Source: the human T2T-CHM13v2.0 reference genome, Homo sapiens. From it: a stretch of 64,000 nt of DNA. Each line of letters starts with the position of its first letter. Positions within the stretch are counted from its first letter, which is position 1. Made by a program: the position numbers and the translations under genes. The stretch lies in the NCBI RefSeq assembly GCF_009914755.1, contig NC_060942.1. One strand, written 5' to 3'. Of this stretch, positions 9,264 through 64,000 are shown in pieces. Under the pieces are notes generated by a model. That model was given only the letters and a program-made list of their open reading frames with translations, was not told where the DNA came from and did no database searches.

Positions 9264-9869
9264 ACTAGACAGAAGCATTCGCAGAAACTTGTTTGTAATG
9301 TGTGTCCTCAACTCACAGAGTTGAACATTTCGTTCGAGAGATCAGTTTGGAAACACTCTTTTTGTAGAATCTGAAAGTGGATATTTGGATAGCTTTGTGG
9401 ATTTCGATGGAAACGGGAGTATCTTCATACAAAACCTAAGCAGAAATATTCTAAGAAACTGCTTTGTGATATCTGCATTCACGTCACAGAGTTGAACATT
9501 CCCTTTGATAGAGCAGGTTTGAAACACTCTTTCTGTAGTGTCTGGATGTGGACACTTTGAGCGCTTTGACGCTTACGGTGAAAAAGGAAATATCTTCCCA
9601 TAAAAACTAGAGAGAAGCATTCGCTGAAACTTCTTTGTGATGTGTGTCCTCAACTAACAGAGTTGAACCTTTCTATTTACAGAACAGTTTTCAAAGACTC
9701 TTTTTGGAGAATCTGCAAGTGGATATTGGGATAGCTTTAAGGATTTCATTGGAAACCGGAATATCTTCAGGTAAAATCTAGCCAGAGGCATTCTCAGAAA
9801 CTTCTTCGTGATGTGTGTCCTCAACTAACAGAGTACAACCTGTCTTTTGATACAGCAGTTTGGAAACAA

Positions 9870-12800
9870 TCTTTTTGTAGAATCTGCAAGAGGATATTTG
9901 GATAGCTCTAGCGATTTCGATGGATACGGGAATACCTTCATATGAAATCTAGACAGAGGCACTCTCAGAAACTGCTTTGTGATATCTGCATTCAAGTCAC
10001 AGAGTTGAACATTCCCTTTCTTAGAGCAGGTTTGAAACTCTCTTTTTGTAGTATCTGGAAGTGGACACTTGGAGCGCTTTGACGCCTTTGGTGAAAAAGG
10101 AAATGTCTTCCCATAAAAACTAGACAGAAGCATTCTAAGAAACTTCTTTGGGATATATGTACTCAACTAACAGAGTTGAACCTTTCTATTTAGAGATCAG
10201 TTTTAAAAAGCTCTTTTTGTGGAATCCGCAAGTGGATATTAGAATAGCTCTGAGGATTTCGTTGGAGACGGGATTACGTATAAAAAGTAGACAGCAGCAT
10301 TCTCAAAAGCTTCTTTGTGATGTTTGCTTTTAAATCGCAGAGTTCAATATTCCCTTCCGTAGAGAAGGTTTGAAACACTCTTTCTGTAGTATCTGGAAGT
10401 GGACATTTCGAGCGATTTCAGGCCTGTGTTGAAAAAGGAAATATCTTCCAATAAAAACTAGACGGAAGCATTCTCAAAAATTTCTTTGTGATGTGCGTCC
10501 TCAACTAACAGAGTTCATCCTTTCTTATGATACAGCAGTTTATAAACACTCTTTTTGTAGAATCTGCAAGTGGATATTTGCATAGCTCTAACCATTTCAT
10601 AGGAAACGGGAATACCTTCATATAAAATCTAGACAGAGGCACCCTCAGAAACTGCTTTGTGATATCTGCATTCAAGTCACAGAGTTGAACATTCCCTTTC
10701 TTAGAGCAGGTTTGAGACAATCTATTTGTAGTATCTGGTAGTGGACATTTGGAGCGCTTTGACGCCTTTGGTGAAAAAGGAAATATCTTCCATAAAAACT
10801 AGACAGAAGCATTCCAAGAATCTTCCTTGCGATATATGTACTCAACTACCAGAGTTGAACCTTTCTATTGATAGATCAGTTTTGAAAAGCTCTTTTTGTG
10901 GAATCTGCAATTGGATATAAGGATAGTTCTGAGGATTTCGTTGGAGACGGGATTGCATATAAAAAGTAGACAGCAGCATTCCCAGAAGCTTCTTTGTGAT
11001 GTTTGCTTTTAAGTCACAGAGTTGAATATTCCCTTCCATAGAGCAGGTTTGAAACCCTCTTTGTCTACTATCTGGAAGTGGACATTTCGAGCGCTTTCAG
11101 GCCTATGGTGAACAAGGAAATATCGTCCCATAAAAACTAGACAGAAGCATTCGCAGAAACTTGTTTGTGATGTGTGTCCTCATCTCACAGAGGTGACCAT
11201 TTCGTTTGACAGAGCAGTTTGGAAACACGCTTTTTGCAGAATACGCAAGTGGATATTTGGATAGCTGTAACGATTTCGTTGGATACGGGAATAACTTCAT
11301 ATAAATTCTAGACAGAGGCACTCTCAGAAACTGCTTTTTGATATCTGCATTCAAGTCACGGAGTTGAACATTCTCTTTCTTAGAGCAGGTTTGAAACACT
11401 CTTTTTGTAGTATCTGGAAGTGGACATTTGGAGGGCTTTGACGCCTTTGGTGAAAAAGGAAATGTCTTCCCATAAAAACTAGACAGAAGCATTCTAAGAA
11501 ACTTCTTTGGGATATATGTACTCAACTAACAGAGTTGAACCTTTCTCTTTATAGATCAGTTTTGAAAAGCTCTTTTTGTGGAATCTGCAAGTGGATATTA
11601 AAATAGCTCTGAGGATTTCGTTGGAGACGGGATGACATATAAAAAGTAGACAGCAGCATTCTCAGAAGCGTCTTTGTGATGTTTGCTTTTAAGTCACAGA
11701 GTTGAATTTTCCCTTCCATAGAGCAGGTTTGAAACAATCTTTCTGTAGTATCTGGAAGTGGACATTTCGAGCGCTTTCAGGCCTATGTTGAAAAATTAAA
11801 TATCTTCTCATAAAAACTATACAGAAGCATTCTCAGAAACGTCTTTGTGATGTGTGGCCTCAACTAACAGAGTTCAACCTTTCTTATGATACAGCAGTTT
11901 GGAAACACTCTTTTTGTAGAATATGCAATTGGATATTTGGATAGCTCTAAGTATTTCGTTGGAGACGGGAATATCTTCATATAAAATCTAGACAGAAGCA
12001 CTCTCAGAAACTACTTTGTGATATCTGCATTCAAGTCACAGAGTTGAAAATTCCCTTTCTTAGACCAGGTTTTAAACCGTCTTCTCGTGGAATCTGCAGG
12101 AGGATATTTCGATAGCCTTGAGGGTTTAGTTGGAAACGGGATTACATATACAAAGTAGACAGCAGCATTCTCAGAAGCTTCTTTGTGATGTTTGCTTGTA
12201 AGTCACAGAGTTGAACATTCTCTTTCATAGAGCAGGTTTGAAACACTCTTCCTGTAGTATCTGGAAGTGGACATTTCGAGCGCTTTCAGGCCTATGGTGA
12301 ACAAGGAAATATCTTCCCATAAAAACTAGATAGAAGCATTCGCAGAAACTTCTTTGTGATGTGTGTCCTCAACTCACAGAGTCGAACATTTCGTTTGACA
12401 GAGCAGTTTGGAAACACGCTTTTTGTAGAATCTGCAAGTGGATATTTGGATAGCTTTGCGGATTTTGCTTGAAACGGGAGTATCTTCCTATTAAACCTAG
12501 ACAGAAACATTCTCAGAAACTGCTTTGTGATGTCTGCATTCACGTCACGGAGTTGAACATTCCCTTTCATAGAGCAGGTTTGAAACTCCCTTTCTGTAGT
12601 ATCTGGATGTGGACACTTGGAGGGCTTTGACGCTTACGGTGAAAAAGGAAATATGTTCCCATGAAAACTAGACAGAAGCATTCTCACAAACTGGTTTGTG
12701 ATGTATGTCCTCAACTAACAGACTTGAACCTTTCTATTTACAGAGCAGTTTTGAAAGACACTTTTTGGAGACTCTGCAAGTGGATATTTGGAGAGCTTTA

Positions 12801-15800
12801 AGGATTTCACTGGAAACCGGAATATCTTGAGGAAAAATCTAGACAGAGGCATTCTCAGAAACTTCTTTGTGATGTGTGTCCTCAACTAACAGAGTACAAC
12901 TTGTCTTCTGATACAGCAGTTTCGAAACACTCTTTTTGTAGAAACTCCAAGAGGATATTTCGATAGCTCTAACGGTTTCGTTGGAAACCGGAATACCTTC
13001 ATATAAAATTTAGCAGAGGCACTCTCAGAAACTGCTTTGTGATATCTGCATTCAAGTCACAGAGTTGAACATTCCCTTTCTTAGAGCAGGTTTGAAACAC
13101 CCTTTTTGTAGTATCTGGAAGTGGACATTTGGAGCGCTTTGACGCCTCTGGTGAAAAAGGAAAGGTCTTCCCATAAAAACTAGACAGAAGCATTCTAAGG
13201 AACTTCTTTGGGATATATGTACTCAACTAACACAGTTGAACCTTTCTATTTATAGATCAGTTTTGAAAAGCTCTTTTTGTGGAATCCGCATGTGGATATT
13301 AGGATAGCACTGAGGATTTCGTTGGAGACGGGATTACGTATAAAAAGTAGACAGCAGCATTCTCAGAAGCTTCTTTGTGATGTTTGCTTTTAAATCGCAG
13401 AGTTCAATATTCCCTTCCATAGAGCAGGTTTGAGACACTCTTTCTGTAGTATCTGGAAGTGGACATTTCGAGCGATTTCAGGCCTATGTTGAAAAAGGAA
13501 ATATCTTCCAATAAAAATTAGACGGAAGCATTCTCAAAAATTTCTTTGTGATGTGTGTCCTCAACTAACAGGGTTCAACCTTTCTTTTGATACAGCAGTT
13601 TGTAAACACTCTTTTTGTAGAATCTGCATGTGGATATTTGGATAGCTCTAACCATTTCATAGGAAACGAGAATAACTTCATATAAAATCTAGACAGAGGC
13701 ACTCTCAGAAACTACTTTGTGATATCTGCGTTCAAGTCACAGAGTTGAACATTCCCTTTCTTAGAGCAGGTTTGAGACACTCTTTTTGTAGTATCTGGAA
13801 GTGGACATTTGGAGCGCTTTGACGCCTTTGGTGAAAAAGGAAATATCTTCCATAAAAACTAGACAGAAGCATTCTAAGAAACTTCTTGGCGATATATGTA
13901 CTCACCTAACAGAGTTGAACCTTTCTATTGATAGATCAGTTTCGAAAAGCTCTTTTTGTGGAATCTGCAATTGGATATAAGGATAGTTCTGAGGATTTCG
14001 TTGGAGACGGGATTGCATATAAAAAGTAGACAGCAGCATTCTCAGAAGCTTCTTTGTGATGTTTGCTTTTAAGTCACAGAGTTGAATATTCCATTCCATA
14101 GAGCAGGTTTGAAACCCTCTTTCTCTACTATCTGGAAGTGGACATTTCGAGCGCTTTCAGGCCTATGGTGAACAAGGAAATATCGTCCCATAAAAACTAG
14201 ACAGAAGCATTAGCAGAAAATTGTTTGTGATGTGTGCCCTCAACTCACAGAGTGGAACACTTCGTTTCACAGAGCAGTTTGGAAACACGCTTTTTGTAGA
14301 ATTTGCATGTGGATATTTGGATAGCTTTGTGGATTTCGTTGGAAACGGAAGTATCCTCATATAAAAATTAGACAGAAACATTCTCAGAAACCGCTTTGTG
14401 ATGTCTGCATTCACGTCACAGAGTTGAACATTCCCTTTCATAGAGCAGGTTTGAAACACTCTTTCTGTAGTATCTGGATGTGGACACTTGGAGCACATTG
14501 ACGCTTACGGTAAAAAAGGAAATATCTTCCCATAAAAACTAGACAGAAGCATTCTCACAAACTGGTTTGTGATGTATGTCCTCAACTAACAGCGTTGAAC
14601 CTTTCTATTTACAGAGCAGTTTTGAAAGACTCTTTTTGGAGAATCTGTAAGCGGATATTTGGAGAGCTTCAAGGATTTCATTTTAAACCGTAATATCTTC
14701 AGGTAAAATCTAGCCAGAGGCATTCTCAGAAACTTATTTATGATGTGTGTCCTCAACTAACAGAGTACAACCTATCTTTTGATACAGCAGTTTGGAAACA
14801 CTCTTTTTGTAGAATCTGCAAGTGGATATTTCGATAGCTGTAACGATTTCGTTGGAAATGGGAATACCTTCATATAAAATCTAGAGAGGCACTCTCCGAA
14901 AGTGCTTTGAGCTATCTGCTTTCAAGTCACAGAGTTGAACATTCCCTTTCTTAGAGAAGGTTTGAAACACTCTTTTTGTAGTATGTGTAAGTGGACACTT
15001 AGACCGCTTCGACCCCTTTGGTGAAAAAGGAAATGTCTTCCCATAAAAACTAGACAGAAGCATTCTAAGAAACTTCTTTGGGATATATGTACTCAACTAA
15101 CAGAGTTGAACCTTTCTATTTCTGGGTCAGTTTTGAGAAGCTCTTTTTCTGTAATCTGCAAGTGGATATTCGGATAGCTCTGAGGATTTCCTTGGAAACG
15201 GGATTTCATATAAAATATAGACAGCAGCATTCTCAGAAGCTTCTTTGTGATGGTTGCTTTTAAGTCACAGAGTTGAATATTCCCTTCCATAGAGCAGGAT
15301 TGAAACACTCTTTCTGTAGTATCCGGAAGTGGACATTTCGGGCGATTTCAGTCCTATGTTGAAAAAGGAAATATCATCCCATAAAAACTAGACAGAAGCA
15401 TTCTCAGAAATTTCTTTGTGATGTGTGTCCTCAACTAACAGAGTTCAAACTGTCTTATGATACAGCAGTTTGGAAACACTCCTTTTGTAGAATATGCAAG
15501 TGGATATTTGGATAGCTCTAACTATTTCGTTGGAAACGGGAATATCTTCATATAAAATCTAGACACAAGCACTCTCAGAAACTACTTTCTGATATCTGCA
15601 TTCAAGTCACAGAGTTGAATATTCCCTTTCTTAGAGCAGGTTTGAAACCGTCTTTTCGTGGAATCTGCAGGAGGATATTTGGATAGCTTTGAGGATTTCG
15701 TTGGAAAAGGGATTAAATATAAAAATAGAAAGCAGCATTCTCAGAAGCTTCTTTGTGATGTTTGCTTTTAAGTCACAGTGTTCAACATTCCCTTTCATAG

Positions 15801-18800
15801 AGCAGTTTTGAAACACTCTTTCTGTAGTATCTGGAAGTGGACATTTCGAGTGCTTTCAGGCCTATGGTGAAAAAGGAAATATCTTCCGATAAAAACTAGA
15901 CAGAAGCATTCGCAGAAACTTGTTTGTGATATGTATCCTCAACTATCAGAGTTGAACATTTCATTTGACAGAGCAGTTTGGAAACACGCTTTTTGTAGAA
16001 TCTGCAAGTGGATATTTGGATAGCTTTGTGGATTTCCTTGGAAACGGGAGTATCTTCATATAAAACCTAGACAGAAACATTCTCAGAAACTGCTATATGA
16101 TGTCTGCATTCACGTCACAGAGTTGATCATTCCCTTTCATAGAGCAGGTTTGAAACACTCTTTCTGTACTATCTGGATGTGGACACTTGGAGCGCTTTGA
16201 CGCTTAAGGTGCAAAAGAAATATCTTCCCATAAAAACTAGACAGAAGCATTCTCACAAACTGGATTGTGATGTTTGTCCTCAACTAACAGAGTTGAAACA
16301 TTTTATTTGCAGAGCAGTTTTGAAAGACTGTTTTTGGAGAATCTTCAAGTGGATATTTGGAGAGCTTTAAGGAATTCATTGGAAACGGGAATATCTTCAT
16401 ATAAAATCTAGACAGAGGCATTCTCAGAAACTTCTTTGTGATGTGTGTCCTCAACTAACGGCGGTACATCCTGTCTTTTGATACAGCAGTTTGGAAACAC
16501 TCTTTTTGTAGAATCTGCCAGTGGATATTTGCATAGCTCTAATGATTTCTTTGGAAACGGGAATACCTTCATATAAAATCTAGACAGAGGCACTCTCAGA
16601 AACTGCTTTGTGATATCTGCATTCAAGTCACACAGTTCAACATTCCCTTTCTTAGAGCAGGTTTGAAACACTCTTTTTGCAGGATCTGGAAGTGGACATT
16701 TGGAGCGCTTTGACGCCTTTGGTGATAAAGGAAATGTCTTCACATAAAAACTAGAAAGAAGCATTCTAAGAAACATCTTTGTGATATATGTACTCAACTA
16801 ACCGAGTTGAACCTTGCTCTTTATAGATCAGCTTTTTAATGCTCTTTTTGTGGAATCTGCAAGTGGATATTTGGATAGCTTTCAGGATTTCGTTGGAAAC
16901 GGGATTACAAACAAAATGTAGACAGCAGCATTCTCAGAAACTTCTTTGTGATGTTTGCTTTTAAGTCACAGAGTTGAACATTCCCTTCCATAGAGCAGTT
17001 TAGAAACACTCTTTCTATAGTATCTGGAAGTGGACATTTCGAGCGATTTCAGGCCTATGTTGAAAAACGAAATATCTTCCCATAAAAACTAGACAGTAGC
17101 ATACTCAGAAGCTTCTTTGTGATGCTTGCTTTTAAGTCACAGAGTTGAACATTCCCTTTCGTAGAGCAGGTTTCAGACACTCTTTCTGTAGTATCTGGAA
17201 GTGGACATTTCGAGTGTTTTCAGGCCTATGGTGAACAAGGAAATATCTTCCCATAAAAACCAGACACAAGCATTTGCAGAAACTTGTTTGTGATGTGTGT
17301 CCTCAACTCACAGAATAGAACATTTCGTTTGACAGAGCAGCTTGGAAACACGCTTTTTGTAGAATCTGCAAGTGGATATTTGGATAGCTTTGTGGATTTC
17401 GTTGGAAACGGGAGAATCTCCATATAAAACCTAGACAGAAACATTCTCAGAAACTGCTTTGTGATGTCTGCATTCACGTTACAGAGTTGAATATTCCCCT
17501 TCATAGAGCAGGTTTGATACACTCTTTCTGTAGTATCTGGATGTGGACACTTGGAGCGCTTTGACGCTTACAGTGAAAAAGGAAATATCTTCCCATAAAA
17601 ACTAGACAGAAGCATTCTCACAAACTGGTTTGTGATGTATGTCCTCATCTAACAGAGTTGAACTTTTCTATTTACAGAGCAGTTTTGAAAGACTCTTTTT
17701 GGAGAATCTGCAAGTGGATATTTCGAGAGCTTTAAGGATTTCACTGGAAACCCGAATATCTTCAGGTAAAATCTAGACAGAGGCATTCTCAGAAACCTCT
17801 TTGTGATGTGTGTCCTCAACTAACAAAGTACTACCTGGCTTTTGATACAGCAGTTTGGAAACACTCTTTTTGTACAATCTGCAAGTGGATATTTGGATAG
17901 CTCTAAAGATTTCGTAGGAAACGGGAATACCTTCATATAAAATCTAGACAGAGGCACTCTCAGAAACTGCTTTGTGATATCTGCATTCAAGTCACAGTGT
18001 TGAACATTCCCTTTCTGAGAGCAGGTTTGAACCACTCTTTTTGTAGTATCTGGAAGTGGACATTTGGAGCGCTTTGACGCCATTGGTGAAAAAGGAAATG
18101 TCTTCCCATAAAAACTAGACAGAAGCATTCTAAGAAACTTCTTTGGGATATATGTACTCAACTAACAGAGTTGAAACTTTCTATTTAGAGATCAGTTTTG
18201 AAAAGCTCTTTTTGTGGAATCTGCAAGTCGATGTTAGGATACCGCCGAAGATTTCGTTGGAGACGGGATTACATATAAAAATAGACAGCAGCATTCTCAG
18301 AAGCTTCTTTGTGATGTTTGCTTTTAAATCACAGAGTTGAATATTCCCTTCCATAGAGCAGGTTTGAAACACTCTTTCTGTAGTATCTGGAAGTGGACAT
18401 TTCGAGCGATTTCAGGCCTATGTTGAAAAAGGAAATATCTTCCCATAAAAACTAGACAGAAGCATTCTCAGAAACTTCTTTGTGATGTGTGTCCTCAACT
18501 AACAGAGTTCAACCTCTCTTATGATACAGCAGTTTGGAAACACTCTTTTTGTAGAATATGCAACTGGATATTTGGAGAGCTCTAACTATTTTGTTGGTAA
18601 CGGGAATATCTTCATATAAAATCTAGACAGAAGCACTCTCAGAAACTACTTTGTGATATCTGCATTCAAGTCACAGAGTTGAATATTCCCTTTCTTAGAG
18701 CAGGTTTGAAACCGTCTTTTCGTGGAATCTGCAGGAGGATATTTGGATAGCTTTGAGGATTTCGTTGGAAACGGGATTACATATACAAAGTGGACAGCAG

Positions 18801-21800
18801 CATTCTCAGAAGCTTCTTTGTGATGTTTGCTTTTAAGTCACAGAGTTGAACATTCCCTTTCATAGAGCAGGTTTCAAACACTCTTTCTGTAATATCTGGA
18901 AGTGGCCATTTCGAGCGCTTTCAGGCCTATGGTGAACAAGGAAATATCTTCCCATAAAAACTAAACAGAAGCCTTCGCAGAAACTTGTTTGTGATGTGTG
19001 TCCTCAACTCACAGAGTTGAACATTTCGTTTGACAGAGCAGTTTGGAAACACGCTTTTTGTAGAATCTGCAAGTGGATATTTGGATAGCTTTGTGGATTT
19101 CCTTGGAAACGGGAGTATCTTCATATAAAACCTAGACAGAAACATTCTCAGAAACTGCTTTGTGATGTCTGTATTCACGTCACAGAGTTGAATATTTCCT
19201 TTCATAGAGCAGGTTTGAAACACTCTTTCTGTAGTATCTGGATGTGGACACTTGGAGCGCTTTGAGGCTTACGGTGCAAAAGGAAATATCTTCCAATGAA
19301 AACTAGACAGAAGCATTCTCAAAAACTAGTTTGTGATGTATTTCCTCAACTAACAGAGTTGAACCTTTCTATTTACAGAGTAGTTTTGAAAGACTCTTTT
19401 TGGAGAATCTACAAGTGGATATTTGAGAGCTTTAAGGATTTCATTGTAAACCGGAATATCTTCAGGTAAACTCTAGACAGAGGCATTCTCAGAAACTTCT
19501 TTGTGATGTGTGTCCTCAACTAACAGAGTTCAGCCTTTGTTATGATACAGCAGTTTGGAAACACTCTTTTTGTACTATCAGGAAGTGGACTTTTGGAGCG
19601 CTTTGACACCTTTGGTGATAAAGAGATGTCTTCCCATAAAAACCAGACGGAAGCATTCTAAGAGAATTCTTTGGGATATAAGTACTCAACTAACAGAGTT
19701 GAACCTTTCTATTTATAGATCAGTCTTGAAAAGCTCTTTTCGTGGAATCTGCAAGTGAATCTTAGGATAGCTCTGAGGATTTCGTTGGAAATCGGATTAC
19801 ATATAAAAAGTAGACAGCAGCATTCTCAGAAACTTCTTTGTGATGTTTGCTTTTAAGTCACAGAGTTCAATATTCCCTTCCATAGAGCCGGTTTGAAACA
19901 CTTTTTTTGTAGTATCTGGAAGTGGACATTTCGAGCGATTTCAGGCCTATGTTGAAAAAGGAAACATCTTCCCATAAAAAAAGACAGAAGCATTCTCAGA
20001 AACTTCTTTGTGATGTGTGTCCTCAACTAACAGAGTTCAACCTCTCGTATAATACAGCAGTTTGAAAAAACACTTTTTGTAGAATATGCAAGTGGATATT
20101 TGAACAGCTCTAACTATTTCGTTCGAAATGGGAATATCTTCATATAAAATCTAGACAGAAGCACTCTCAGAAACTACATTGTGATATCTGTATTCAAGTC
20201 ACAGAGTTGAATATTCCCTTTCTTAGAGCAGGTTTGAAACCGTCTTTTCGTGGAAGCTGCAGGAGGATATTTGGATAGCTTTGAGGATTTCGTTGGAAAC
20301 GGGATTACATATACAAAGTAGACAGCAACATTCTCAGAAGCTTCTTTGTGATGTTTGCTTCTAAGTCACAGAGTTGAACATTCCCTTTCATACAGCAGGT
20401 TTGAAACACTCTTTCTGTAGTATCTGGAAGTGGACATTTCGAGCGCTTTCAGGCCCATGGTGAAAAAGGAAATATCTCCCCATAAAAACTAGACAGAAGC
20501 ATTCGCAGAAACTTGTTTGTGATGTGTGTCCTCAACCAACAGAGTTGAACATTTCCTGTGACAGAGCAGTTTGGAAACACGCTTTTTGTAGAATCTGCAA
20601 TTGGATATTTGGATAGCTTTGTGGATGTCGTTGGAAACGGGAGTATCTTCATATAAAACCTAGACGGAAACATTCTCCGAAACTCCTTTGTAATGTCTGC
20701 ATTCACGTCACAGAGTTGAACATTCCCTTTCATAGAGCAGGTTTGAAACACTCTTTCTGAAGTATCTGGATGTCGACACTTGGAGCGCTTTGACGCTTAC
20801 ACTGAAAAAGGAAATAACTTCCCATGAAAACTAGACAGAAGCATTCTCACAAACTGGTTTGTGATGTATGTCCTCAACTAACAGAGTTGAACCTTTCTAT
20901 TTACAGAGCAATTTTCAAAGACTCTTTTTGGAGAATCTGCAAGTGGATATCTGGAGATCTTTTAGGATTTCATTGGAAACCGGAATATCTTCAGGTAAAA
21001 TCTAGACAGAGGCATTCTCAGAAACTTCTTCATGATGTGCGTCCTCAACTAACAGAGTACAACCTGTCTTTTGATACATCAGTTTGGAAACACTCTTTTT
21101 GTAGAATCTGGAAGTGGATATTTCGATAGCTCTAACGATTTCGTTGGAAACGGGAATAGCTTCATATAAAATCTAGGCAGAGGCACTCTCAGAAACTACT
21201 TTGTGAGATCTGCATTCAAGTCACAGAGTTCAACATTCCCTTTCGTAGATCTGGTTTGATAGACTCTTTTTATTGTATCTGGAAGTGGACATTTGGAGCG
21301 CTTTGACGACTTTGGTGAAAAAGGAAATATCTTCCCATAAAAACTAGACAGAAGCATTCTCAGAAACTTGTTTGTGCTGTGTGTACTCAACTGACAGAGC
21401 TGAACTTTTCTTTCTACACAGCAGTTTTGAAAAACTCTTTTTGTAGTATCTGCAAGTGGATAATTGGATGGCTTTAAGGATTTCGTTGGAAATGGGTCTA
21501 CATTCATGTAAAATCTACACAGAAGCATTCTCAGAAACTTCTTTGGGATATATGTACTCAACTAACAGAGTTGAACCTTTCTATTTCTGGGTCAGTTTTG
21601 AGAAGCTCTTTTTCTGTAATCTGCAAGTGGATATTCGGATAGCTCTGAGGATTTCCTTGGAAATGGGATTTCATATAAAATGTAGACAGCAGCATTCTCA
21701 GAAGCTTCTTTGTGATGTTTGCTTTTAAGTCACAGAGTTGAATATTCCCTTCCATAGAGCAGGATTGAAACACTCTTTCTGTAGTATCCGGAAGTGGACA

Positions 21801-24496
21801 TTTCGGGTGATTTCAGTCCTATGTTGAAAAAGGAAATATCATCCCATAAAAACTAGACAGAAGCATTCTCAGAAATTTCTTTGTGATGTGTGTCCTCAAC
21901 TAACAGAGTTCAAACTGTCTTATGATACAGCAGTTTGGAAACACTCCTTTTGTAGAATATGCAAGTGGATACTTGGATAGCTCTAACTATTTCGTTGGAA
22001 ACGGGAATATCATCATATAAAATCTAGACACAAGCACTCTCAGAAACTACATTCTAATATCTGCATTCAAGTCACAGAGTTGAATATTCCCTTTCTTAGA
22101 GCAGGTTTGAAACCGTCTTTTCGTGGAATGTGCAGGAGGATATTTGGATAGCTTTGAGGATTTCGTTGGAAAAGGGATTACATATACAAAGTAGAAAGCA
22201 GCATTCTCAGAAGCTTCTTTGTGATGTTTGCTTTTAAGTCACAGAGTTGAACATTCCCTTTCATAGAGCAGTTTTGAAACACTCTTTCTGTAGTATCTGG
22301 AAGTGGACATTTCGAGTGCTTTCCGAACTATCGTGAAAAAGGAAATATCTTCCGATAAAAACTAGACAGAAGCATTCGCAGAAACTTGTTTGTGATGTGT
22401 GTCCTCAACTCACAGAGTTGAACATTTCGTTTGACAGAGCAGTTTGGAAACACGCTTTTTGTAGAATCTGCAAGTGGATATTTGGATAGCTTTGTGGATT
22501 TCCTTGGAAACGGGAGTATCTTCATATAAAACCTAGACAGAAACATTCTCAGAAACTGCTTTGTGATGTCTGTATTCACATCACAGAGTTGAATATTTCC
22601 TTTCATAGAGCAGGTTTGAAACACTCTTTCTGTAGTATCTGGATGTGGACACTTGGAGCGCTTTGAGGCTTACGGTGCAAAAGGAAATATCTTCCAATGA
22701 AAACTAGACAGAAGCATTCTCAAAAACTAGTTTGTGATGTATTTCCTCAACTAACAGAGTTGAACCTTTCTATTTACAGAGTAGTTTTGAAAGACTCTTT
22801 TTGGAGAATCTACAAGTGGATATTTGGAGAGCTTTAAGGATTTCATTGTAAACCGGAATATCTTCAGGTAAAATCTAGACAGAGGCATTCTCAGAAACTT
22901 CTTTGTGATGTGTGTCCTCAACTAACAGAGTTCAGCCTTTGTTATGATACAGCAGTTTGGAAACACTCTTTTTCTACTATCAGGAAGTGGACTTCTGGAG
23001 CGCTTTGACACCTTTGGTGATAAAGAGATGTCTTCCCATAAAAACTAGACGGAAGCATTCTAAGAGAATTCTTTGGGATATACGTACTCAACTAACAGAG
23101 TTGAACCTTTCTATTTATAGATCAGTCTTGAAAAGCTCTTTTCGTGGAATCTGCAAGTGAATCTTAGGATAGCTCTGAGGATTGCGTTGGAAACGGGATT
23201 ACATATAAAAAGTAGACAGCAGCATTCTCAGAAACTTCTTTGTGATGTTTGCTTTTAAGTCACAGAGTTCAATATTCCCTTCCATAGAGCCGGTTTGAAA
23301 CACTTTTTTTGTAGTATCTGGAAGTGGACATTTCGAGCGATTTCAGGCCTATGTTGAAAAAGGAAACATCTTCCCATAAAAACAAGACAGAAGCATTCTC
23401 AGAAACTTCTTTGTGATGTGTGTCCTCAACTAACAGAGTTCAACCTCTCTTATAATACAGCAGTTTGAAAAAACACTTTTTGTAGAATATGCAAGTGGAT
23501 ATTTGAACAGCTCTAACTATTTCGTTCGAAATGGGAATATCTTCATATAAAATCTAGACAGAAGCACTCTCAGAAACTACATTGTGATATCAGTATTCAA
23601 ATCACAGAGTTGAATATTCCCTTTCTTAGAGCAGGTTTGAAACCGTCTTTTCGTGGAAGCTGCAGGAGGATATTTGGATAGCTTTGAGGATTTCGTTGGA
23701 AACGGGATTACATATACAAAGTAGACAGCAACATTCTCAGAAGCTTCTTTGTGATGTTTGCTTCTAAGTCACAGAGTTGAACATTCCCTTTCATACAGCA
23801 GGTTTGAAACACTCTTTCTGTAGTATCTGGAAGTGGACATTTCGAGCGCTTTCAGGCCCATGGTGAAAAAGGAAATATCTCCCCATAAAAACTAGACAGA
23901 AGCATTCGCAGAAACTTGTTTGTGATGTGTGTCCTCAACCAACAGAGTTGAACATTTCCTGTGACAGAGCAGTTTGGAAACACGCTTTTTGTAGAATCTG
24001 CAAGTGGATATTTGGATAGCTTTGTGGATTTCCTTGGGAACGGGAGTATCTTCATATAAAACCTAGACGGAAACATTCTCCGAAACTCCTTTGTAATGTC
24101 TGCATTCACGTCACAGAGTTGAACATTCCCTTTCATAGAGCAGGTTTGAAACACTCTTTCTGAAGTATCTGGATGTGGACACTTGGAGCGCTTTGACGCT
24201 TACGGTGAAAAAAGAAATAACTTCCCATGAAAACTAGACAGAAGCATTCTCACAAACTGGTTTGTGATGTATGTCCTCAACTAACAGAGTTGAACCTTTC
24301 TATTTACAGAGCAGTTTTCAAAGACTCTTTTTGGAGAATCTGCAAGTGGATATCTGGAGATCTTTAAGGATTTCACTGGAAACCGGAATATCTTCAGGTA
24401 AAATCTGGACAGAGGCATTCTCGGAAACTTCTTCGTGATGTGCGTCCTCAACTAACAGAGTACAACCTGTCTTTTGATACATCAGTTTGGAAACAC
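9870..24496 (+). repeat. 86-monomer super-HOR, copy 1 (14,627 bp)
   Basis: ORFs recur at +14,627 (10505/25132, 16408/31035, 21196/35823) with near-identical sequence. Identity with copy 2 begins after the last mismatch at 9869. Confidence 0.93.
11490..13190 (+). repeat. Example of the complete ancestral 10-mer HOR (~1.7 kb; box order B-A-B-B-A-B-A-B-B-A); possibly related to the D18Z2/S2C18H2 family (tentative)
   Basis: Ten distinguishable monomer types occur in the same order here and at 15061-16761 and 23056-24757. The chromosome family is inferred only from the 10-mer SF2-like organisation and has not been verified. Confidence 0.7.
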
Positions 24497-27400
24497 TCTT
24501 TTTGTAGAATCTGCAAGAGGATATTTGGATAGCTCTAGCGATTTCGATGGATACGGGAATACCTTCATATGAAATCTAGACAGAGGCACTCTCAGAAACT
24601 GCTTTGTGATATCTGCATTCAAGTCACAGAGTTGAACATTCCCTTTCTTAGAGCAGGTTTGAAACTCTCTTTTTGTAGTATCTGGAAGTGGACACTTGGA
24701 GCGCTTTGACGCCTTTGGTGAAAAAGGAAATGTCTTCCCATAAAAACTAGACAGAAGCATTCTAAGAAACTTCTTTGGGATATATGTACTCAACTAACAG
24801 AGTTGAACCTTTCTATTTAGAGATCAGTTTTAAAAAGCTCTTTTTGTGGAATCCGCAAGTGGATATTAGAATAGCTCTGAGGATTTCGTTGGAGACGGGA
24901 TTACGTATAAAAAGTAGACAGCAGCATTCTCAAAAGCTTCTTTGTGATCTTTGCTTTTAAATCGCAGAGTTCAATATTCCCTTCCGTAGAGAAGGTTTGA
25001 AACACTCTTTCTGTAGTATCTGGAAGTGGACATTTCGAGCGATTTCAGGCCTATGTTGAAAAAGGAAATATCTTCCAATAAAAACTAGACGGAAGCATTC
25101 TCAAAAATTTCTTTGTGATGTGCGTCCTCAACTAACAGAGTTCATCCTTTCTTATGATACAGCAGTTTATAAACACTCTTTTTGTAGAATCTGCAAGTGG
25201 ATATTTGCATAGCTCTAACCATTTCATAGGAAACGGGAATACCTTCATATAAAATCTAGACAGAGGCACCCTCAGAAACTGCTTTGTGATATCTGCATTC
25301 AAGTCACAGAGTTGAACATTCCCTTTCTTAGAGCAGGTTTGAGACAATCTATTTGTAGTATCTGGTAGTGGACATTTGGAGCGCTTTGACGCCTTTGGTG
25401 AAAAAGGAAATATCTTCCATAAAAACTAGACAGAAGCATTCCAAGAATCTTCCTTGCGATATATGTACTCAACTACCAGAGTTGAACCTTTCTATTGATA
25501 GATCAGTTTTGAAAAGCTCTTTTTGTGGAATCTGCAATTGGATATAAGGATAGTTCTGAGGATTTCGTTGGAGACGGGATTGCATATAAAAAGTAGACAG
25601 CAGCATTCTCAGAAGCTTCTTTGTGATGTTTGCTTTTAAGTCACAGAGTTGAATATTCCCTTCCATAGAGCAGGTTTGAAACCCTCTTTGTCTACTATCT
25701 GGAAGTGGACATTTCGAGCGCTTTCAGGCCTATGGTGAACAAGGAAATATCGTCCCATAAAAACTAGACAGAAGCATTCGCAGAAACTTGTTTGTGATGT
25801 GTGTCCTCATCTCACAGAGGTGACCATTTCGTTTGACAGAGCAGTTTGGAAACACGCTTTTTGCAGAATACGCAAGTGGATATTTGGATAGCTGTAACGA
25901 TTTCGTTGGATACGGGAATAACTTCATATAAATTCTAGACAGAGGCACTCTCAGAAACTGCTTTTTGATATCTGCATTCAAGTCACGGAGTTGAACATTC
26001 TCTTTCTTAGAGCAGGTTTGAAACACTCTTTTTGTAGTATCTGGAAGTGGACATTTGGAGGGCTTTGACGCCTTTGGTGAAAAAGGAAATGTCTTCCCAT
26101 AAAAACTAGACAGAAGCATTCTAAGAAACTTCTTTGGGATATATGTACTCAACTAACAGAGTTGAACCTTTCTCTTTATAGATCAGTTTTGAAAAGCTCT
26201 TTTTGTGGAATCTGCAAGTGGATATTAAAATAGCTCTGAGGATTTCGTTGGAGACGGGATGACATATAAAAAGTAGACAGCAGCATTCTCAGAAGCGTCT
26301 TTGTGATGTTTGCTTTTAAGTCACAGAGTTGAATTTTCCCTTCCATAGAGCAGGTTTGAAACAATCTTTCTGTAGTATCTGGAAGTGGACATTTCGAGCG
26401 CTTTCAGGCCTATGTTGAAAAATTAAATATCTTCTCATAAAAACTATACAGAAGCATTCTCAGAAACGTCTTTGTGATGTGTGGCCTCAACTAACAGAGT
26501 TCAACCTTTCTTATGATACAGCAGTTTGGAAACACTCTTTTTGTAGAATATGCAATTGGATATTTGGATAGCTCTAAGTATTTCGTTGGAGACGGGAATA
26601 TCTTCATATAAAATCTAGACAGAAGCACTCTCAGAAACTACTTTGTGATATCTGCATTCAAGTCACAGAGTTGAAAATTCCCTTTCTTAGACCAGGTTTT
26701 AAACCGTCTTCTCGTGGAATCTGCAGGAGGATATTTCGATAGCCTTGAGGGTTTAGTTGGAAACGGGATTACATATACAAAGTAGACAGCAGCATTCTCA
26801 GAAGCTTCTTTGTGATGTTTGCTTGTAAGTCACAGAGTTGAACATTCTCTTTCATAGAGCAGGTTTGAAACACTCTTCCTGTAGTATCTGGAAGTGGACA
26901 TTTCGAGCGCTTTCAGGCCTATGGTGAACAAGGAAATATCTTCCCATAAAAACTAGATAGAAGCATTCGCAGAAACTTCTTTGTGATGTGTGTCCTCAAC
27001 TCACAGAGTCGAACATTTCGTTTGACAGAGCAGTTTGGAAACACGCTTTTTGTAGAATCTGCAAGTGGATATTTGGATAGCTTTGCGGATTTTGCTTGAA
27101 ACGGGAGTATCTTCCTATTAAACCTAGACAGAAACATTCTCAGAAACTGCTTTGTGATGTCTGCATTCACGTCACGGAGTTGAACATTCCCTTTCATAGA
27201 GCAGGTTTGAAACTCCCTTTCTGTAGTATCTGGATGTGGACACTTGGAGGGCTTTGACGCTTACGGTGAAAAAGGAAATATGTTCCCATGAAAACTAGAC
27301 AGAAGCATTCTCACAAACTGGTTTGTGATGTATGTCCTCAACTAACAGACTTGAACCTTTCTATTTACAGAGCAGTTTTGAAAGACACTTTTTGGAGACT

Positions 27401-30400
27401 CTGCAAGTGGATATTTGGAGAGCTTTAAGGATTTCACTGGAAACCGGAATATCTTGAGGAAAAATCTAGACAGAGGCATTCTCAGAAACTTCTTTGTGAT
27501 GTGTGTCCTCAACTAACAGAGTACAACTTGTCTTCTGATACAGCAGTTTCGAAACACTCTTTTTGTAGAAACTCCAAGAGGATATTTCGATAGCTCTAAC
27601 GGTTTCGTTGGAAACCGGAATACCTTCATATAAAATTTAGCAGAGGCACTCTCAGAAACTGCTTTGTGATATCTGCATTCAAGTCACAGAGTTGAACATT
27701 CCCTTTCTTAGAGCAGGTTTGAAACACCCTTTTTGTAGTATCTGGAAGTGGACATTTGGAGCGCTTTGACGCCTCTGGTGAAAAAGGAAAGGTCTTCCCA
27801 TAAAAACTAGACAGAAGCATTCTAAGGAACTTCTTTGGGATATATGTACTCAACTAACACAGTTGAACCTTTCTATTTATAGATCAGTTTTGAAAAGCTC
27901 TTTTTGTGGAATCCGCATGTGGATATTAGGATAGCACTGAGGATTTCGTTGGAGACGGGATTACGTATAAAAAGTAGACAGCAGCATTCTCAGAAGCTTC
28001 TTTGTGATGTTTGCTTTTAAATCGCAGAGTTCAATATTCCCTTCCATAGAGCAGGTTTGAGACACTCTTTCTGTAGTATCTGGAAGTGGACATTTCGAGC
28101 GATTTCAGGCCTAGGTTGAAAAAGGAAATATCTTCCAATAAAAATTAGACGGAAGCATTCTCAAAAATTTCTTTGTGATGTGTGTCCTCAACTAACAGGG
28201 TTCAACCTTTCTTTTGATACAGCAGTTTGTAAACACTCTTTTTGTAGAATCTGCATGTGGATATTTGGATAGCTCTAACCATTTCATAGGAAACGAGAAT
28301 AACTTCATATAAAATCTAGACAGAGGCACTCTCAGAAACTACTTTGTGATATCTGCGTTCAAGTCACAGAGTTGAACATTCCCTTTCTTAGAGCAGGTTT
28401 GAGACACTCTTTTTGTAGTATCTGGAAGTGGACATTTGGAGCGCTTTGACGCCTTTGGTGAAAAAGGAAATATCTTCCATAAAAACTAGACAGAAGCATT
28501 CTAAGAAACTTCTTGGCGATATATGTACTCACCTAACAGAGTTGAACCTTTCTATTGATAGATCAGTTTCGAAAAGCTCTTTTTGTGGAATCTGCAATTG
28601 GATATAAGGATAGTTCTGAGGATTTCGTTGGAGACGGGATTGCATATAAAAAGTAGACAGCAGCATTCTCAGAAGCTTCTTTGTGATGTTTGCTTTTAAG
28701 TCACAGAGTTGAATATTCCATTCCATAGAGCAGGTTTGAAACCCTCTTTCTCTACTATCTGGAAGTGGACATTTCGAGCGCTTTCAGGCCTATGGTGAAC
28801 AAGGAAATATCGTCCCATAAAAACTAGACAGAAGCATTAGCAGAAAATTGTTTGTGATGTGTGCCCTCAACTCACAGAGTGGAACACTTCGTTTCACAGA
28901 GCAGTTTGGAAACACGCTTTTTGTAGAATTTGCATGTGGATATTTGGATAGCTTTGTGGATTTCGTTGGAAACGGAAGTATCCTCATATAAAAATTAGAC
29001 AGAAACATTCTCAGAAACCGCTTTGTGATGTCTGCATTCACGTCACAGAGTTGAACATTCCCTTTCATAGAGCAGGTTTGAAACACTCTTTCTGTAGTAT
29101 CTGGATGTGGACACTTGGAGCACATTGACGCTTACGGTAAAAAAGGAAATATCTTCCCATAAAAACTAGACAGAAGCATTCTCACAAACTGGTTTGTGAT
29201 GTATGTCCTCAACTAACAGCGTTGAACCTTTCTATTTACAGAGCAGTTTTGAAAGACTCTTTTTGGAGAATCTGTAAGCGGATATTTGGAGAGCTTCAAG
29301 GATTTCATTTTAAACCGTAATATCTTCAGGTAAAATCTAGCCAGAGGCATTCTCAGAAACTTATTTATGATGTGTGTCCTCAACTAACAGAGTACAACCT
29401 ATCTTTTGATACAGCAGTTTGGAAACACTCTTTTTGTAGAATCTGCAAGTGGATATTTCGATAGCTGTAACGATTTCGTTGGAAATGGGAATACCTTCAT
29501 ATAAAATCTAGAGAGGCACTCTCCGAAAGTGCTTTGAGCTATCTGCTTTCAAGTCACAGAGTTGAACATTCCCTTTCTTAGAGAAGGTTTGAAACACTCT
29601 TTTTGTAGTATGTGTAAGTGGACACTTAGACCGCTTCGACCCCTTTGGTGAAAAAGGAAATGTCTTCCCATAAAAACTAGACAGAAGCATTCTAAGAAAC
29701 TTCTTTGGGATATATGTACTCAACTAACAGAGTTGAACCTTTCTATTTCTGGGTCAGTTTTGAGAAGCTCTTTTTCTGTAATCTGCAAGTGGATATTCGG
29801 ATAGCTCTGAGGATTTCCTTGGAAACGGGATTTCATATAAAATATAGACAGCAGCATTCTCAGAAGCTTCTTTGTGATGGTTGCTTTTAAGTCACAGAGT
29901 TGAATATTCCCTTCCATAGAGCAGGATTGAAACACTCTTTCTGTAGTATCCGGAAGTGGACATTTCGGGCGATTTCAGTCCTATGTTGAAAAAGGAAATA
30001 TCATCCCATAAAAACTAGACAGAAGCATTCTCAGAAATTTCTTTGTGATGTGTGTCCTCAACTAACAGAGTTCAAACTGTCTTATGATACAGCAGTTTGG
30101 AAACACTCCTTTTGTAGAATATGCAAGTGGATATTTGGATAGCTCTAACTATTTCGTTGGAAACGGGAATATCTTCATATAAAATCTAGACACAAGCACT
30201 CTCAGAAACTACTTTCTGATATCTGCATTCAAGTCACAGAGTTGAATATTCCCTTTCTTAGAGCAGGTTTGAAACCGTCTTTTCGTGGAATCTGCAGGAG
30301 GATATTTGGATAGCTTTGAGGATTTCGTTGGAAAAGGGATTAAATATAAAAATAGAAAGCAGCATTCTCAGAAGCTTCTTTGTGATGTTTGCTTTTAAGT

Positions 30401-33400
30401 CACAGTGTTCAACATTCCCTTTCATAGAGCAGTTTTGAAACACTCTTTCTGTAGTATCTGGAAGTGGACATTTCGAGTGCTTTCAGGCCTATGGTGAAAA
30501 AGGAAATATCTTCCGATAAAAACTAGACAGAAGCATTCGCAGAAACTTGTTTGTGATATGTATCCTCAACTATCAGAGTTGAACATTTCATTTGACAGAG
30601 CAGTTTGGAAACACGCTTTTTGTAGAATCTGCAAGTGGATATTTGGATAGCTTTGTGGATTTCCTTGGAAACGGGAGTATCTTCATATAAAACCTAGACA
30701 GAAACATTCTCAGAAACTGCTATATGATGTCTGCATTCACGTCACAGAGTTGATCATTCCCTTTCATAGAGCAGGTTTGAAACACTCTTTCTGTACTATC
30801 TGGATGTGGACACTTGGAGCGCTTTGACGCTTAAGGTGCAAAAGAAATATCTTCCCATAAAAACTAGACAGAAGCATTCTCACAAACTGGATTGTGATGT
30901 TTGTCCTCAACTAACAGAGTTGAAACATTTTATTTGCAGAGCAGTTTTGAAAGACTGTTTTTGGAGAATCTTCAAGTGGATATTTGGAGAGCTTTAAGGA
31001 ATTCATTGGAAACGGGAATATCTTCATATAAAATCTAGACAGAGGCATTCTCAGAAACTTCTTTGTGATGTGTGTCCTCAACTAACGGCGGTACATCCTG
31101 TCTTTTGATACAGCAGTTTGGAAACACTCTTTTTGTAGAATCTGCCAGTGGATATTTGCATAGCTCTAATGATTTCTTTGGAAACGGGAATACCTTCATA
31201 TAAAATCTAGACAGAGGCACTCTCAGAAACTGCTTTGTGATATCTGCATTCAAGTCACACAGTTCAACATTCCCTTTCTTAGAGCAGGTTTGAAACACTC
31301 TTTTTGCAGGATCTGGAAGTGGACATTTGGAGCGCTTTGACGCCTTTGGTGATAAAGGAAATGTCTTCACATAAAAACTAGAAAGAAGCATTCTAAGAAA
31401 CATCTTTGTGATATATGTACTCAACTAACCGAGTTGAACCTTGCTCTTTATAGATCAGCTTTTTAATGCTCTTTTTGTGGAATCTGCAAGTGGATATTTG
31501 GATAGCTTTCAGGATTTCGTTGGAAACGGGATTACAAACAAAATGTAGACAGCAGCATTCTCAGAAACTTCTTTGTGATGTTTGCTTTTAAGTCACAGAG
31601 TTGAACATTCCCTTCCATAGAGCAGTTTAGAAACACTCTTTCTATAGTATCTGGAAGTGGACATTTCGAGCGATTTCAGGCCTATGTTGAAAAACGAAAT
31701 ATCTTCCCATAAAAACTAGACAGTAGCATACTCAGAAGCTTCTTTGTGATGCTTGCTTTTAAGTCACAGAGTTGAACATTCCCTTTCGTAGAGCAGGTTT
31801 CAGACACTCTTTCTGTAGTATCTGGAAGTGGACATTTCGAGTGTTTTCAGGCCTATGGTGAACAAGGAAATATCTTCCCATAAAAACCAGACACAAGCAT
31901 TTGCAGAAACTTGTTTGTGATGTGTGTCCTCAACTCACAGAGTTGAACATTTCGTTTGACAGAGCAGCTTGGAAACACGCTTTTTGTAGAATCTGCAAGT
32001 GGATATTTGGATAGCTTTGTGGATTTCGTTGGAAACGGGAGAATCTCCATATAAAACCTAGACAGAAACATTCTCAGAAACTGCTTTGTGATGTCTGCAT
32101 TCACGTTACAGAGTTGAATATTCCCCTTCATAGAGCAGGTTTGATACACTCTTTCTGTAGTATCTGGATGTGGACACTTGGAGCGCTTTGACGCTTACAG
32201 TGAAAAAGGAAATATCTTCCCATAAAAACTAGACAGAAGCATTCTCACAAACTGGTTTGTGATGTATGTCCTCATCTAACAGAGTTGAACTTTTCTATTT
32301 ACAGAGCAGTTTTGAAAGACTCTTTTTGGAGAATCTGCAAGTGGATATTTCGAGAGCTTTAAGGATTTCACTGGAAACCCGAATATCTTCAGGTAAAATC
32401 TAGACAGAGGCATTCTCAGAAACCTCTTTGTGATGTGTGTCCTCAACTAACAAAGTACTACCTGGCTTTTGATACAGCAGTTTGGAAACACTCTTTTTGT
32501 ACAATCTGCAAGTGGATATTTGGATAGCTCTAAAGATTTCGTAGGAAACGGGAATACCTTCATATAAAATCTAGACAGAGGCACTCTCAGAAACTGCTTT
32601 GTGATATCTGCATTCAAGTCACAGTGTTGAACATTCCCTTTCTGAGAGCAGGTTTGAACCACTCTTTTTGTAGTATCTGGAAGTGGACATTTGGAGCGCT
32701 TTGACGCCATTGGTGAAAAAGGAAATGTCTTCCCATAAAAACTAGACAGAAGCATTCTAAGAAACTTCTTTGGGATATATGTACTCAACTAACAGAGTTG
32801 AAACTTTCTATTTAGAGATCAGTTTTGAAAAGCTCTTTTTGTGGAATCTGCAAGTCGATGTTAGGATACCGCCGAAGATTTCGTTGGAGACGGGATTACA
32901 TATAAAAATAGACAGCAGCATTCTCAGAAGCTTCTTTGTGATGTTTGCTTTTAAATCACAGAGTTGAATATTCCCTTCCATAGAGCAGGTTTGAAACACT
33001 CTTTCTGTAGTATCTGGAAGTGGACATTTCGAGCGATTTCAGGCCTATGTTGAAAAAGGAAATATCTTCCCATAAAAACTAGACAGAAGCATTCTCAGAA
33101 ACTTCTTTGTGATGTGTGTCCTCAACTAACAGAGTTCAACCTCTCTTATGATACAGCAGTTTGGAAACACTCTTTTTGTAGAATATGCAACTGGATATTT
33201 GGAGAGCTCTAACTATTTTGTTGGTAACGGGAATATCTTCATATAAAATCTAGACAGAAGCACTCTCAGAAACTACTTTGTGATATCTGCATTCAAGTCA
33301 CAGAGTTGAATATTCCCTTTCTTAGAGCAGGTTTGAAACCGTCTTTTCGTGGAATCTGCAGGAGGATATTTGGATAGCTTTGAGGATTTCGTAGGAAACG

Positions 33401-63443: not shown

Positions 63444-64000
63444 TCTTTTTGTAGAATCTGCAAGAGGATATTTGGATAGCTCTAGCGATTTCGATGGATA
63501 CGGGAATACCTTCATATGAAATCTAGACAGAGGCACTCTCAGAAACTGCTTTGTGATATCTGCATTCAAGTCACAGAGTTGAACATTCCCTTTCTTAGAG
63601 CAGGTTTGAAACTCTCTTTTTGTAGTATCTGGAAGTGGACACTTGGAGCGCTTTGACGCCTTTGGTGAAAAAGGAAATGTCTTCCCATAAAAACTAGACA
63701 GAAGCATTCTAAGAAACTTCTTTGGGATATATGTACTCAACTAACAGAGTTGAACCTTTCTATTTAGAGATCAGTTTTAAAAAGCTCTTTTTGTGGAATC
63801 CGCAAGTGGATATTTGAATAGCTCTGAGGATTTCGTTGGAGACGGGATTACGTATAAAAAGTAGACAGCAGCATTCTCAAAAGCTTCTTTGTGATCTTTG
63901 CTTTTAAATCGCAGAGTTCAATATTCCCTTCCGTAGAGAAGGTTTGAAACACTCTTTCTGTAGTATCTGGAAGTGGACATTTCGAGCGATTTCAGGCCTA
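63444..64000 (+). repeat. Super-HOR copy 5, partial (runs off the window)
   Basis: Matches the start of the unit (gcgatttcgatggatacggg, catatgaaatc, gaaactctct). Confidence 0.9.

What the first reader, a model, noticed from the sequence alone, without database searches (positions are those of the whole stretch)
9790..9935. Origin junction of the super-HOR mappable to ~20 bp, creating a chimeric monomer
Seen: the monomer at ~9790 differs from its counterpart at ~24417 in its first half (ctcag/ctcgg, gtgtgt/gtgcgt, tacagcag/tacatcag, a9869/c) and matches after 9869 (aagagga, ttcgatggatacggg). The first half of the 24417 monomer shares gtgcgt and tacatcag with the monomer at ~21013, its 3.4-kb paralog. 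Inference: the first duplication was an in-register exchange between two type-9 monomers 14.6 kb apart, crossing over at ~9870-9890. The window therefore holds the true array edge and the unrecombined left parent.
Basis: partly seen in the sequence, partly recalled or inferred. Interest (0 to 1): 0.7.

Follow-up and report, generated by a model that had tools for sequence, protein, structure and literature searches.

The report
Founding junction of alpha-satellite macro-repeat
A 14.6-kb block of inactive centromere-flanking satellite DNA on human chromosome 18 is repeated about six and a half times, and each join between copies carries the same hybrid 171-base monomer, likely the scar of one ordinary misaligned exchange whose second parent sequence is missing from this genome.

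Summary
Identity at offset 14,627 starts at 9870. All six junction monomers (24415, 39042, 48735, 63362, plus two beyond the window) are hybrids. Their left half belongs to the family of the 21012 paralog (11 of 12 derived sites); their right half is the 9788 monomer (0 of 25). The switch maps to 9870-9886 (conservatively 9856-9890). The 9788 monomer is the unrecombined left parent, not the chimera. The array (89.1 kb, 86-monomer unit, copies 99.8-99.99% identical) ends mid-unit at chr18:21,117,007, giving (AB)6A, at a second hybrid junction. A look-alike of the right parent lies 0.4 kb beyond that end, but it is a 97.4% paralog with 12 fixed differences. No true right parent was found in CHM13. 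Best reading: one in-register exchange between 87-92% identical monomers founded the unit; the right parent was likely lost by a distal deletion, or was never on the recombining homolog. Hybrid monomers and long tandem duplications are known features of alpha satellite, and similar events lie next door. The array is probably the catalogued inactive HOR S2C18qH2-B (inferred). A breakpoint-hotspot idea failed out of sample. Well mapped, ordinary mechanism.

The parts
9788..9958 (+). Left-edge monomer: the unrecombined left parent (non-P type in both halves)
   Evidence: Carries 2 of 12 P-family derived states upstream and 0 of 25 downstream; alignment
9870..9886 (+). Crossover window of the founding junction, in left-edge coordinates (conservative bounds 9856-9890)
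   Evidence: Last mismatch to the junction copies at 9869; first mismatch of the junction copies to both P-family proxies at phase 9887
9870..24496 (+). Unit U1 of the macro-repeat: 14,627 bp, 86 monomers, a patchwork of diverged 10-mer (1.7-kb) HOR copies. Segment A = 9870-17371, segment B = 17372-24496
   Evidence: 17099-18799 is one 1701-bp 10-mer, 91.9% identical to the p-arm 10-mer array
21012..21182 (+). P1: 3.4-kb paralog monomer used as proxy for the missing right parent; present once per B segment
   Evidence: 19981-21110 is 98.5% identical to 23384-24513, and the match ends at the junction
24415..24585 (+). Hybrid junction monomer J1 (switch at 24497-24513)
   Evidence: 11 of 12 P-derived states upstream, 0 of 25 downstream, p=1.4e-8
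24497..39123 (+). Unit U2 (full length), ending in hybrid monomer J2 at 39042; carries a four-site conversion patch from the 3.4-kb paralog at phase 20601-20635
39124..48816 (+). Unit U3: 9,693 bp, 57 monomers, with an in-register deletion of 4,934 bp (junction 42689-42763); ends in J3 at 48735
48817..63443 (+). Unit U4 (full length), ending in hybrid monomer J4 at 63362
63444..64000 (+). Start of U5. Beyond the window (extended coordinates, window + L001-L005): U5 to 76878 with a 1,192-bp deletion, U6 76879-91505, partial U7 91506-99007 (chr18:21,117,007), second hybrid junction 98978-99007, paralog D monomer at 99418

Best explanation
Position 9870 is the proximal edge of an (AB)6A tandem array of a 14,627-bp alpha-satellite unit whose six joins share one hybrid monomer, likely made by a single in-register misaligned exchange within 17 identical bases (9870-9886) between two related monomers. 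Shown: the hybrid structure, the edge, seven copies at 99.8-99.99% identity, and two later in-register deletions. Inferred: the founding exchange joined a P-family monomer (tail of B) to the 9788 monomer (head of A) by homology-directed unequal exchange or template switching; later unequal exchanges between near-identical copies expanded it; and a separate in-register deletion (at least 7.1 kb) at the distal end fused A to a third P-family paralog and removed the true right parent. Whether that deletion came after the duplication, or was already on the recombining homolog, cannot be told from one genome. Rough age 0.2-1.8 Myr (inferred). No function is implied.
For: Edge and unit. Hybrid test with two independent proxies and three outgroup paralogs: 11/12 vs 0/25 derived sites; 32/33 vs 0/39 informative sites. 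The left-edge monomer shows no such switch (2/12, 0/25). Register and monomer type are conserved across the join (cluster 39). No old divergence at the left edge: 0 differences in the first 452 bp. Distal end is itself a hybrid: 0 of 8 P-derived states before 99007 and 9 of 10 after, while the internal A|B continuation carries 0 of 18. The tail of B has six 99-100% copies, all at internal joins. Homology-driven exchange is visibly active here: deletions of 4,934 and 1,192 bp with 75- and 18-bp identity windows, a conversion patch in U2, and a two-site patch near the U3 junction.
Against: The true right parent is not observed, so the upper bound (9886) rests on 97%-identical proxies. The genome search scored only 40 of 6,777 candidates. 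The ancestral single-copy arrangement is a reconstruction. A 17-bp identical tract is unremarkable for these parents (46% of identical bases lie in tracts that long), so the window does not discriminate among crossover, template switch and microhomology-mediated repair. The patchy U3 junction shows junctions here are not always clean. One haploid genome only.
Confidence: 0.75

Rival explanations
1. One-step origin of ABA: unequal exchange between two structurally different homologs (one L-A-B-R0, one already L-A-D) produced L-A-B|A-D directly, and exchange between A copies then gave (AB)nA. The 9870-9886 junction is the same, but the right parent was never on this chromosome. This is a variant of the best explanation that differs in order of events.
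For: Explains the non-flush end without a post-expansion deletion. Other duplications nearby are also non-flush: 22,287-bp offset with 18.9 kb of identity, a 3,403-bp triplication with 913 bp overlap, and a p-arm 3,402-bp offset with 2,281 bp of identity.
Against: U7 differs from U6 at 1 of 7,502 sites and shows no distinct haplotype, although later expansion would erase that. Meiotic crossover is described as repressed in centromeric haplotypes (PMC9549924 passages). It needs a pre-existing deletion polymorphism.
Confidence: 0.3
2. The junction is old (about 2.7% divergence), the distal monomer at 99418 is the real right parent, and later conversion or homogenisation made all A copies identical right up to the old boundary.
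For: The 99418 monomer has the expected reciprocal pattern (B-tail-like left half, 21012-like right half) and lies 0.4 kb past the array end. Over its first half it differs from junction copies U3-U6 only at phase 9796. Conversion patches do occur in this array.
Against: 12 differences from the B tail are fixed in all six copies over 492 bp (Poisson p=3e-10 at array-level divergence). D is no closer to the B tail (97.4%) than to P1 (97.2%). U1 keeps no old divergence at its edge (0 of 452 bp, p=5e-6 at 2.7%).
Confidence: 0.08
3. The founding junction was the distal phase (17371) and the 9870 edge is a later deletion, making 9788 the chimera.
For: The array is symmetric in form ((AB)nA), so either edge could in principle be primary. 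The 17371 phase is also a junction.
Against: The internal A|B continuation shows no family switch (0 of 18 P-derived states), whereas the internal B|A join does. The 9788 monomer shows no switch.
Confidence: 0.04
4. Assembly artefact (false duplication or misjoin).
For: U6 and U7 differ at only 1 of 7,502 sites, so copy number could be mis-resolved. Raw reads were not available.
Against: Copies carry structured shared and private variants (44 variable sites), two distinct deletions and a conversion patch. The hybrid monomer recurs six times. The hg38 model for a q-arm 10-mer HOR is of similar size (93,042 bp).
Confidence: 0.02

Closest known systems
Hybrid monomers in alpha-satellite HOR structural variants (Altemose et al., bioRxiv 10.1101/2021.07.12.452052; Miga and Alexandrov 2021, PMC9549924; passages read)
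   Same: A rearrangement breakpoint inside a monomer fuses parts of two monomers, keeps the 171-bp length, and is then amplified. Described as abundant.
   Different: Here the new unit is 86 monomers (a duplication of about 8.5 diverged 10-mers, not a small deletion variant), and the left parent survives at the array edge, so the switch maps to 17 bp.
Inactive sister HORs S2C18pH2-A and S2C18qH2-B/-D/-E (PMC9549924 text and Supplemental Table 2)
   Same: q-arm, SF2-type, 10-mer-based, about 90 kb: fits the entry S2C18qH2-B (10 monomers, 93,042 bp hg38 model). A 10-mer from the unit is 91.9% identical to the p-arm 1701-bp array, near the stated 3-7% sister divergence.
   Different: The catalogue lists a 10-mer. 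In CHM13 the homogeneous period is 86 monomers and the 10-mers within it are only about 90-96% alike.
Macro-repeats and recent local tandem duplications in HOR arrays (Altemose et al., passages)
   Same: Long tandem duplications superimposed on HOR periodicity.
   Different: Reported there for active arrays; this one is in an inactive flank and has a mappable edge.
Recombination breakpoints of about 20 bp in D17Z1 variants (Warburton, Waye and Willard 1993; paper not held; seen only as a citation and one citing sentence in PMC3694981)
   Same: Breakpoints mapped to about 20 bp of identity between homologous monomers.
   Different: Those are deletion variants of an active HOR. Non-random position within the monomer was not supported here out of sample.

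Membership tests
Alpha-satellite HOR array (SF2-type) | Head-to-tail ~171-bp monomers with dimeric (342-bp) periodicity and CENP-B-box-type sites | tested here: met
   TRF periods 171 and 342; 18 of 86 U1 monomers carry the CENP-B core motif. D1/D2 classes were not formally assigned.
Alpha-satellite HOR array (SF2-type) | Multi-monomer unit repeated with much higher identity than its monomers share | tested here: met
   Units differ by 0.01-0.23%; monomers in the unit share 65-87% by position bin
Hybrid monomer | Two halves trace to different monomers, with length conserved | tested here: met
   11/12 vs 0/25 derived sites; 171 bp
Simple tandem duplication (L-U-U-R) | Left parent intact at the proximal edge | tested here: met
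   9788 monomer shows no family switch
Simple tandem duplication (L-U-U-R) | Array ends in the same phase, with the reciprocal right parent at the distal edge | tested here: not met
   Ends at phase 17371; the distal look-alike is a 97.4% paralog; no seventh B tail among the 40 scored of 6,777 candidates
S2C18qH2-B | q-arm location, 10-monomer base HOR, about 93 kb | tested here: met
   89,138 bp; contains a 1701-bp 10-mer; catalogue values
S2C18qH2-B | Monomers match the S2C18qH2-B reference model (GJ212066.1, HumAS-HMMER profiles) | not testable with these tools
   Model sequences and CenSat track not available
Inactive (pseudocentromeric) array | No CENP-A or kinetochore occupancy | not testable with these tools
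   No chromatin data; the catalogue lists all S2C18H2 arrays as 'pseudo'
Non-random recombination site within the monomer | Independent junctions cluster at one monomer position | tested here: inconclusive
   5 of 5 discovery windows touch positions 99-105 (post hoc p=0.019; 0.001-0.006 under other nulls), but only 1 of 3 out-of-sample windows does

The most novel reading that the evidence does not exclude
This locus records the birth of a new 86-monomer HOR from dead satellite within the human lineage (0.2-1.8 Myr), with both edges mapped to 17 and 30 bp. It may have formed in one step as ABA by exchange between structurally different homologs in a region thought to be crossover-cold. If so, ancestral (L-A-B-R0), deleted (L-A-D) and expanded alleles could still segregate, making 'how new HORs start' directly testable in pangenomes, and non-flush (AB)nA ends would be a general signature.
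Probability: 0.2. Interest if true: 0.55.

Novelty: new member of a known kind. Interest (0 to 1): 0.27.

Why it matters
Founding junctions of large HOR arrays are usually erased by turnover. Here the left parent, six hybrid copies and two proxies for the right parent survive, so the event maps to 17 bp and can be roughly dated. It shows that exchange between 87-92% identical monomers 14.6 kb apart in register can seed a homogeneous macro-repeat in an inactive layer. It gives diagnostic k-mers for typing this locus across pangenomes. The mechanism class is known, no gene or function is involved, and similar duplications lie within 100 kb, so the value is as a clean worked example.

Tried and rejected
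(1) Reciprocal parent at the distal end: looked in 50 kb beyond the window (L001-L005) and by genome search with the B tail and the P1 continuation; only a 97% paralog was found. (2) p-arm or upstream donor for B: 50 kb of p-arm and 90 kb upstream gave no segment above about 97.6%. (3) Breakpoint hotspot at monomer positions 99-105: suggested by five junctions, not reproduced in three further tandem-duplication windows (81-109 hit; 32-89 and 44-79 miss). (4) Special length of the crossover tract: 17 bp is typical for these parents. (5) Distal phase as the founding junction: rejected. (6) Prior description of the 86-mer or its junction: searches for 'S2C18qH2' (0 papers), '86mer'+'alpha satellite' (0), ROCK1+HOR terms (0), 'S2C18H2' (2 papers, neither describes it in the passages read), D18Z2 terms and hybrid-monomer terms found none. 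The Science version of Altemose et al., its supplements, bioRxiv supplements and the CenSat track could not be seen and may annotate this array. SRF 'cen18' hits were Arabidopsis CEN180. My monomer cut drifted over about -2700 to 4000 and beyond 100900, so cluster labels there were not used. For the divergence summary the conversion patch 20601-20635 and the U3 junction zone were left out; one search includes them.

Full report
Coordinates. Window coordinates are used throughout. Values above 64000 continue into fetched stretches L001-L005 (add 21,018,000 for chr18); negative values are upstream stretches.

1. Observation. Self-comparison gives dominant offsets 14,627, 24,320, 38,947 and 9,693. 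On the 14,627 diagonal the last mismatch is 9869, then 452 identical bases. Upstream the diagonal stays in register at 92% (454/493).

2. Anatomy. A genome search with the junction found six near-perfect copies plus the left edge (40 of 7,450 candidates scored). With 50 kb fetched downstream, the array resolves into seven copies: U1 9870-24496, U2 to 39123, U3 to 48816 (4,934 bp deleted), U4 to 63443, U5 to 76878 (1,192 bp deleted), U6 to 91505, and a partial U7 91506-99007. These hold 86, 57, 79 and 44 monomers for U1, U3, U5 and U7. Copies differ by 0.013-0.234% over 44 variable sites; U1 and U2 share several alleles against the rest. With A = phase 9870-17371 and B = 17372-24496, the array is (AB)6A, 89,138 bp. 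The unit is a patchwork of diverged 10-mers; 17099-18799 is one 1701-bp 10-mer, 91.9% identical to the 1701-bp array on the p arm.

3. Which monomer is the chimera. Three related segments form a 'P family': P1 (around 21012), the B tail (up to 24496) and a distal segment D (99008 onward), all about 97.2-97.4% alike over 492 bp. I scored sites where P1 and D share a state absent from three outgroup paralogs. The junction copy carries 11 of 12 such states upstream of the switch and 0 of 25 downstream (p=1.4e-8); the left-edge monomer carries 2 of 12 and 0 of 25. Without outgroups the counts are 32 of 33 and 0 of 39. So the hybrid is the 24415 monomer and its five copies, and 9788 is the intact left parent. 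The switch lies between 9869 and 9887. 9869A is private to the left edge and could in principle postdate the duplication, so the conservative window is 9856-9890.

4. The distal end. The array instead stops at phase 17371. That end is itself a hybrid: 0 of 8 P-derived states before 99007 and 9 of 10 after (p=4e-4), with a window at 98978-99007, while the internal A|B continuation has 0 of 18. The monomer at 99418 has the reciprocal look. However, D differs from the B tail at 13 of 492 aligned sites, 12 of them fixed in all six copies, against about one expected at array-level divergence (p=3e-10). A search with the B tail alone returned six 99-100% copies, all internal (40 of 6,777 candidates scored). 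No donor above about 97.6% was found in 50 kb of p arm or 90 kb upstream. The true right parent is therefore not seen in CHM13.

5. Mechanism. Shown: register-conserving hybrid joins, near-identical copies, later in-register deletions with 75-bp and 18-bp identity windows, a four-site conversion patch in U2 and a two-site patch upstream of the U3 junction. Inferred: one misaligned homology-directed exchange between a P-family monomer and the 9788 monomer founded the B|A join; unequal exchange between copies expanded it; an in-register deletion fused A to D and removed the right parent. The parents were about 92% alike upstream and 85-88% downstream. A 17-bp tract is typical for them, so crossover, template switch and microhomology-mediated repair cannot be separated. 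The order of the distal deletion is open: it may have followed the duplication, or pre-existed on the recombining homolog and given ABA in one step. An old junction with D as true parent is unlikely, since U1 keeps no old divergence at its edge (0 of 452 bp). Age: 0.10% mean and 0.18% maximum divergence give 0.24-1.8 Myr, using a recalled base rate of 0.5e-9 per site per year and the 1.1-4.1-fold flank elevation read in passages of PMC11062924.

6. A lead that failed. Five junction windows in and beside the array all touch monomer positions 99-105, upstream of the CENP-B box site (post hoc p=0.019 with window lengths kept; 0.001-0.006 under parent-based nulls). Only 1 of 3 further tandem-duplication windows upstream did. 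I do not claim a hotspot.

7. Comparison with what is known. Hybrid monomers from breakpoints inside monomers are described as common (passages of bioRxiv 10.1101/2021.07.12.452052; PMC9549924). Macro-repeats and recent local duplications are described in HOR arrays. Breakpoints of about 20 bp were reported for alpha satellite in 1993 (seen only through a citing sentence). The catalogue of chr18 inactive sister HORs lists S2C18qH2-B as a q-arm 10-mer of 93,042 bp and -D/-E as 11-mers (Supplemental Table 2 of PMC9549924). This array fits -B by size and period, and the 1,872-bp arrays upstream fit -D/-E; both assignments are inferred, not tested against models. Similar events lie next door: a 22,287-bp duplication, a 3,403-bp triplication, and 1,361-, 1,188-, 851- and 675-bp duplications. 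I found no paper describing the 86-mer or its junction, but CenSat tracks and several supplements could not be seen.

8. Verdict. The feature is real and precisely mapped. It is a new, clean example of a known process. Interest 0.27.

Noticed in passing
window 7167-9263: Perfect triplication of a 675-bp (4-monomer) unit, 0 mismatches in 1,422 bp, ending 600 bp left of the array edge; crossover window 7842-7913. Very recent, or worth checking in reads.
   Followed up: partly
window 42495-42763 (U3): The 4,934-bp deletion junction is patchy: two right-parent alleles at 42495 and 42507 lie about 200 bp upstream of the main switch at 42689-42763, as heteroduplex repair or a separate conversion would leave.
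   Followed up: partly
window 35228-35262 (U2, phase 20601-20635): Four clustered variants match the 3.4-kb paralog exactly: a short conversion patch. The same phase (20600/24003) marks a step in P1-versus-B-tail identity (100% to 97%) and corresponds to the distal array edge.
   Followed up: partly
L005:1165-3451 (chr18 about 21,123,165-21,125,451): Alpha satellite switches strand: a 2.3-kb inverted block ends the satellite on the ROCK1 side.
   Followed up: no
L015-L019 (chr18 about 20,959,470-21,000,650): A 22,287-bp-offset duplication (18.9 kb at 99.5%) inside an 1,872-bp 11-mer array; also non-flush, i.e. ABA-like.
   Followed up: partly
L012-L013 (chr18 about 20,933,620-20,941,340) and L009 (15,946,377-15,952,059): A 3,403-bp triplication (99.9%) at the q edge and a 3,402-bp-offset duplication (2,281 bp, 99.9%) near the p edge of the large central array.
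   Followed up: no
window 15068-15715 vs 21533-22180; 18974-21110 vs 22375-24513: Older internal duplications at 98.5-99.8% identity show the 86-mer unit was itself built by earlier in-register exchanges.
   Followed up: partly
window about 3480-4095: The 338/342-bp dimer periodicity breaks here and my monomer cut lost register; a small indel or rearrangement between older layers is likely.
   Followed up: no
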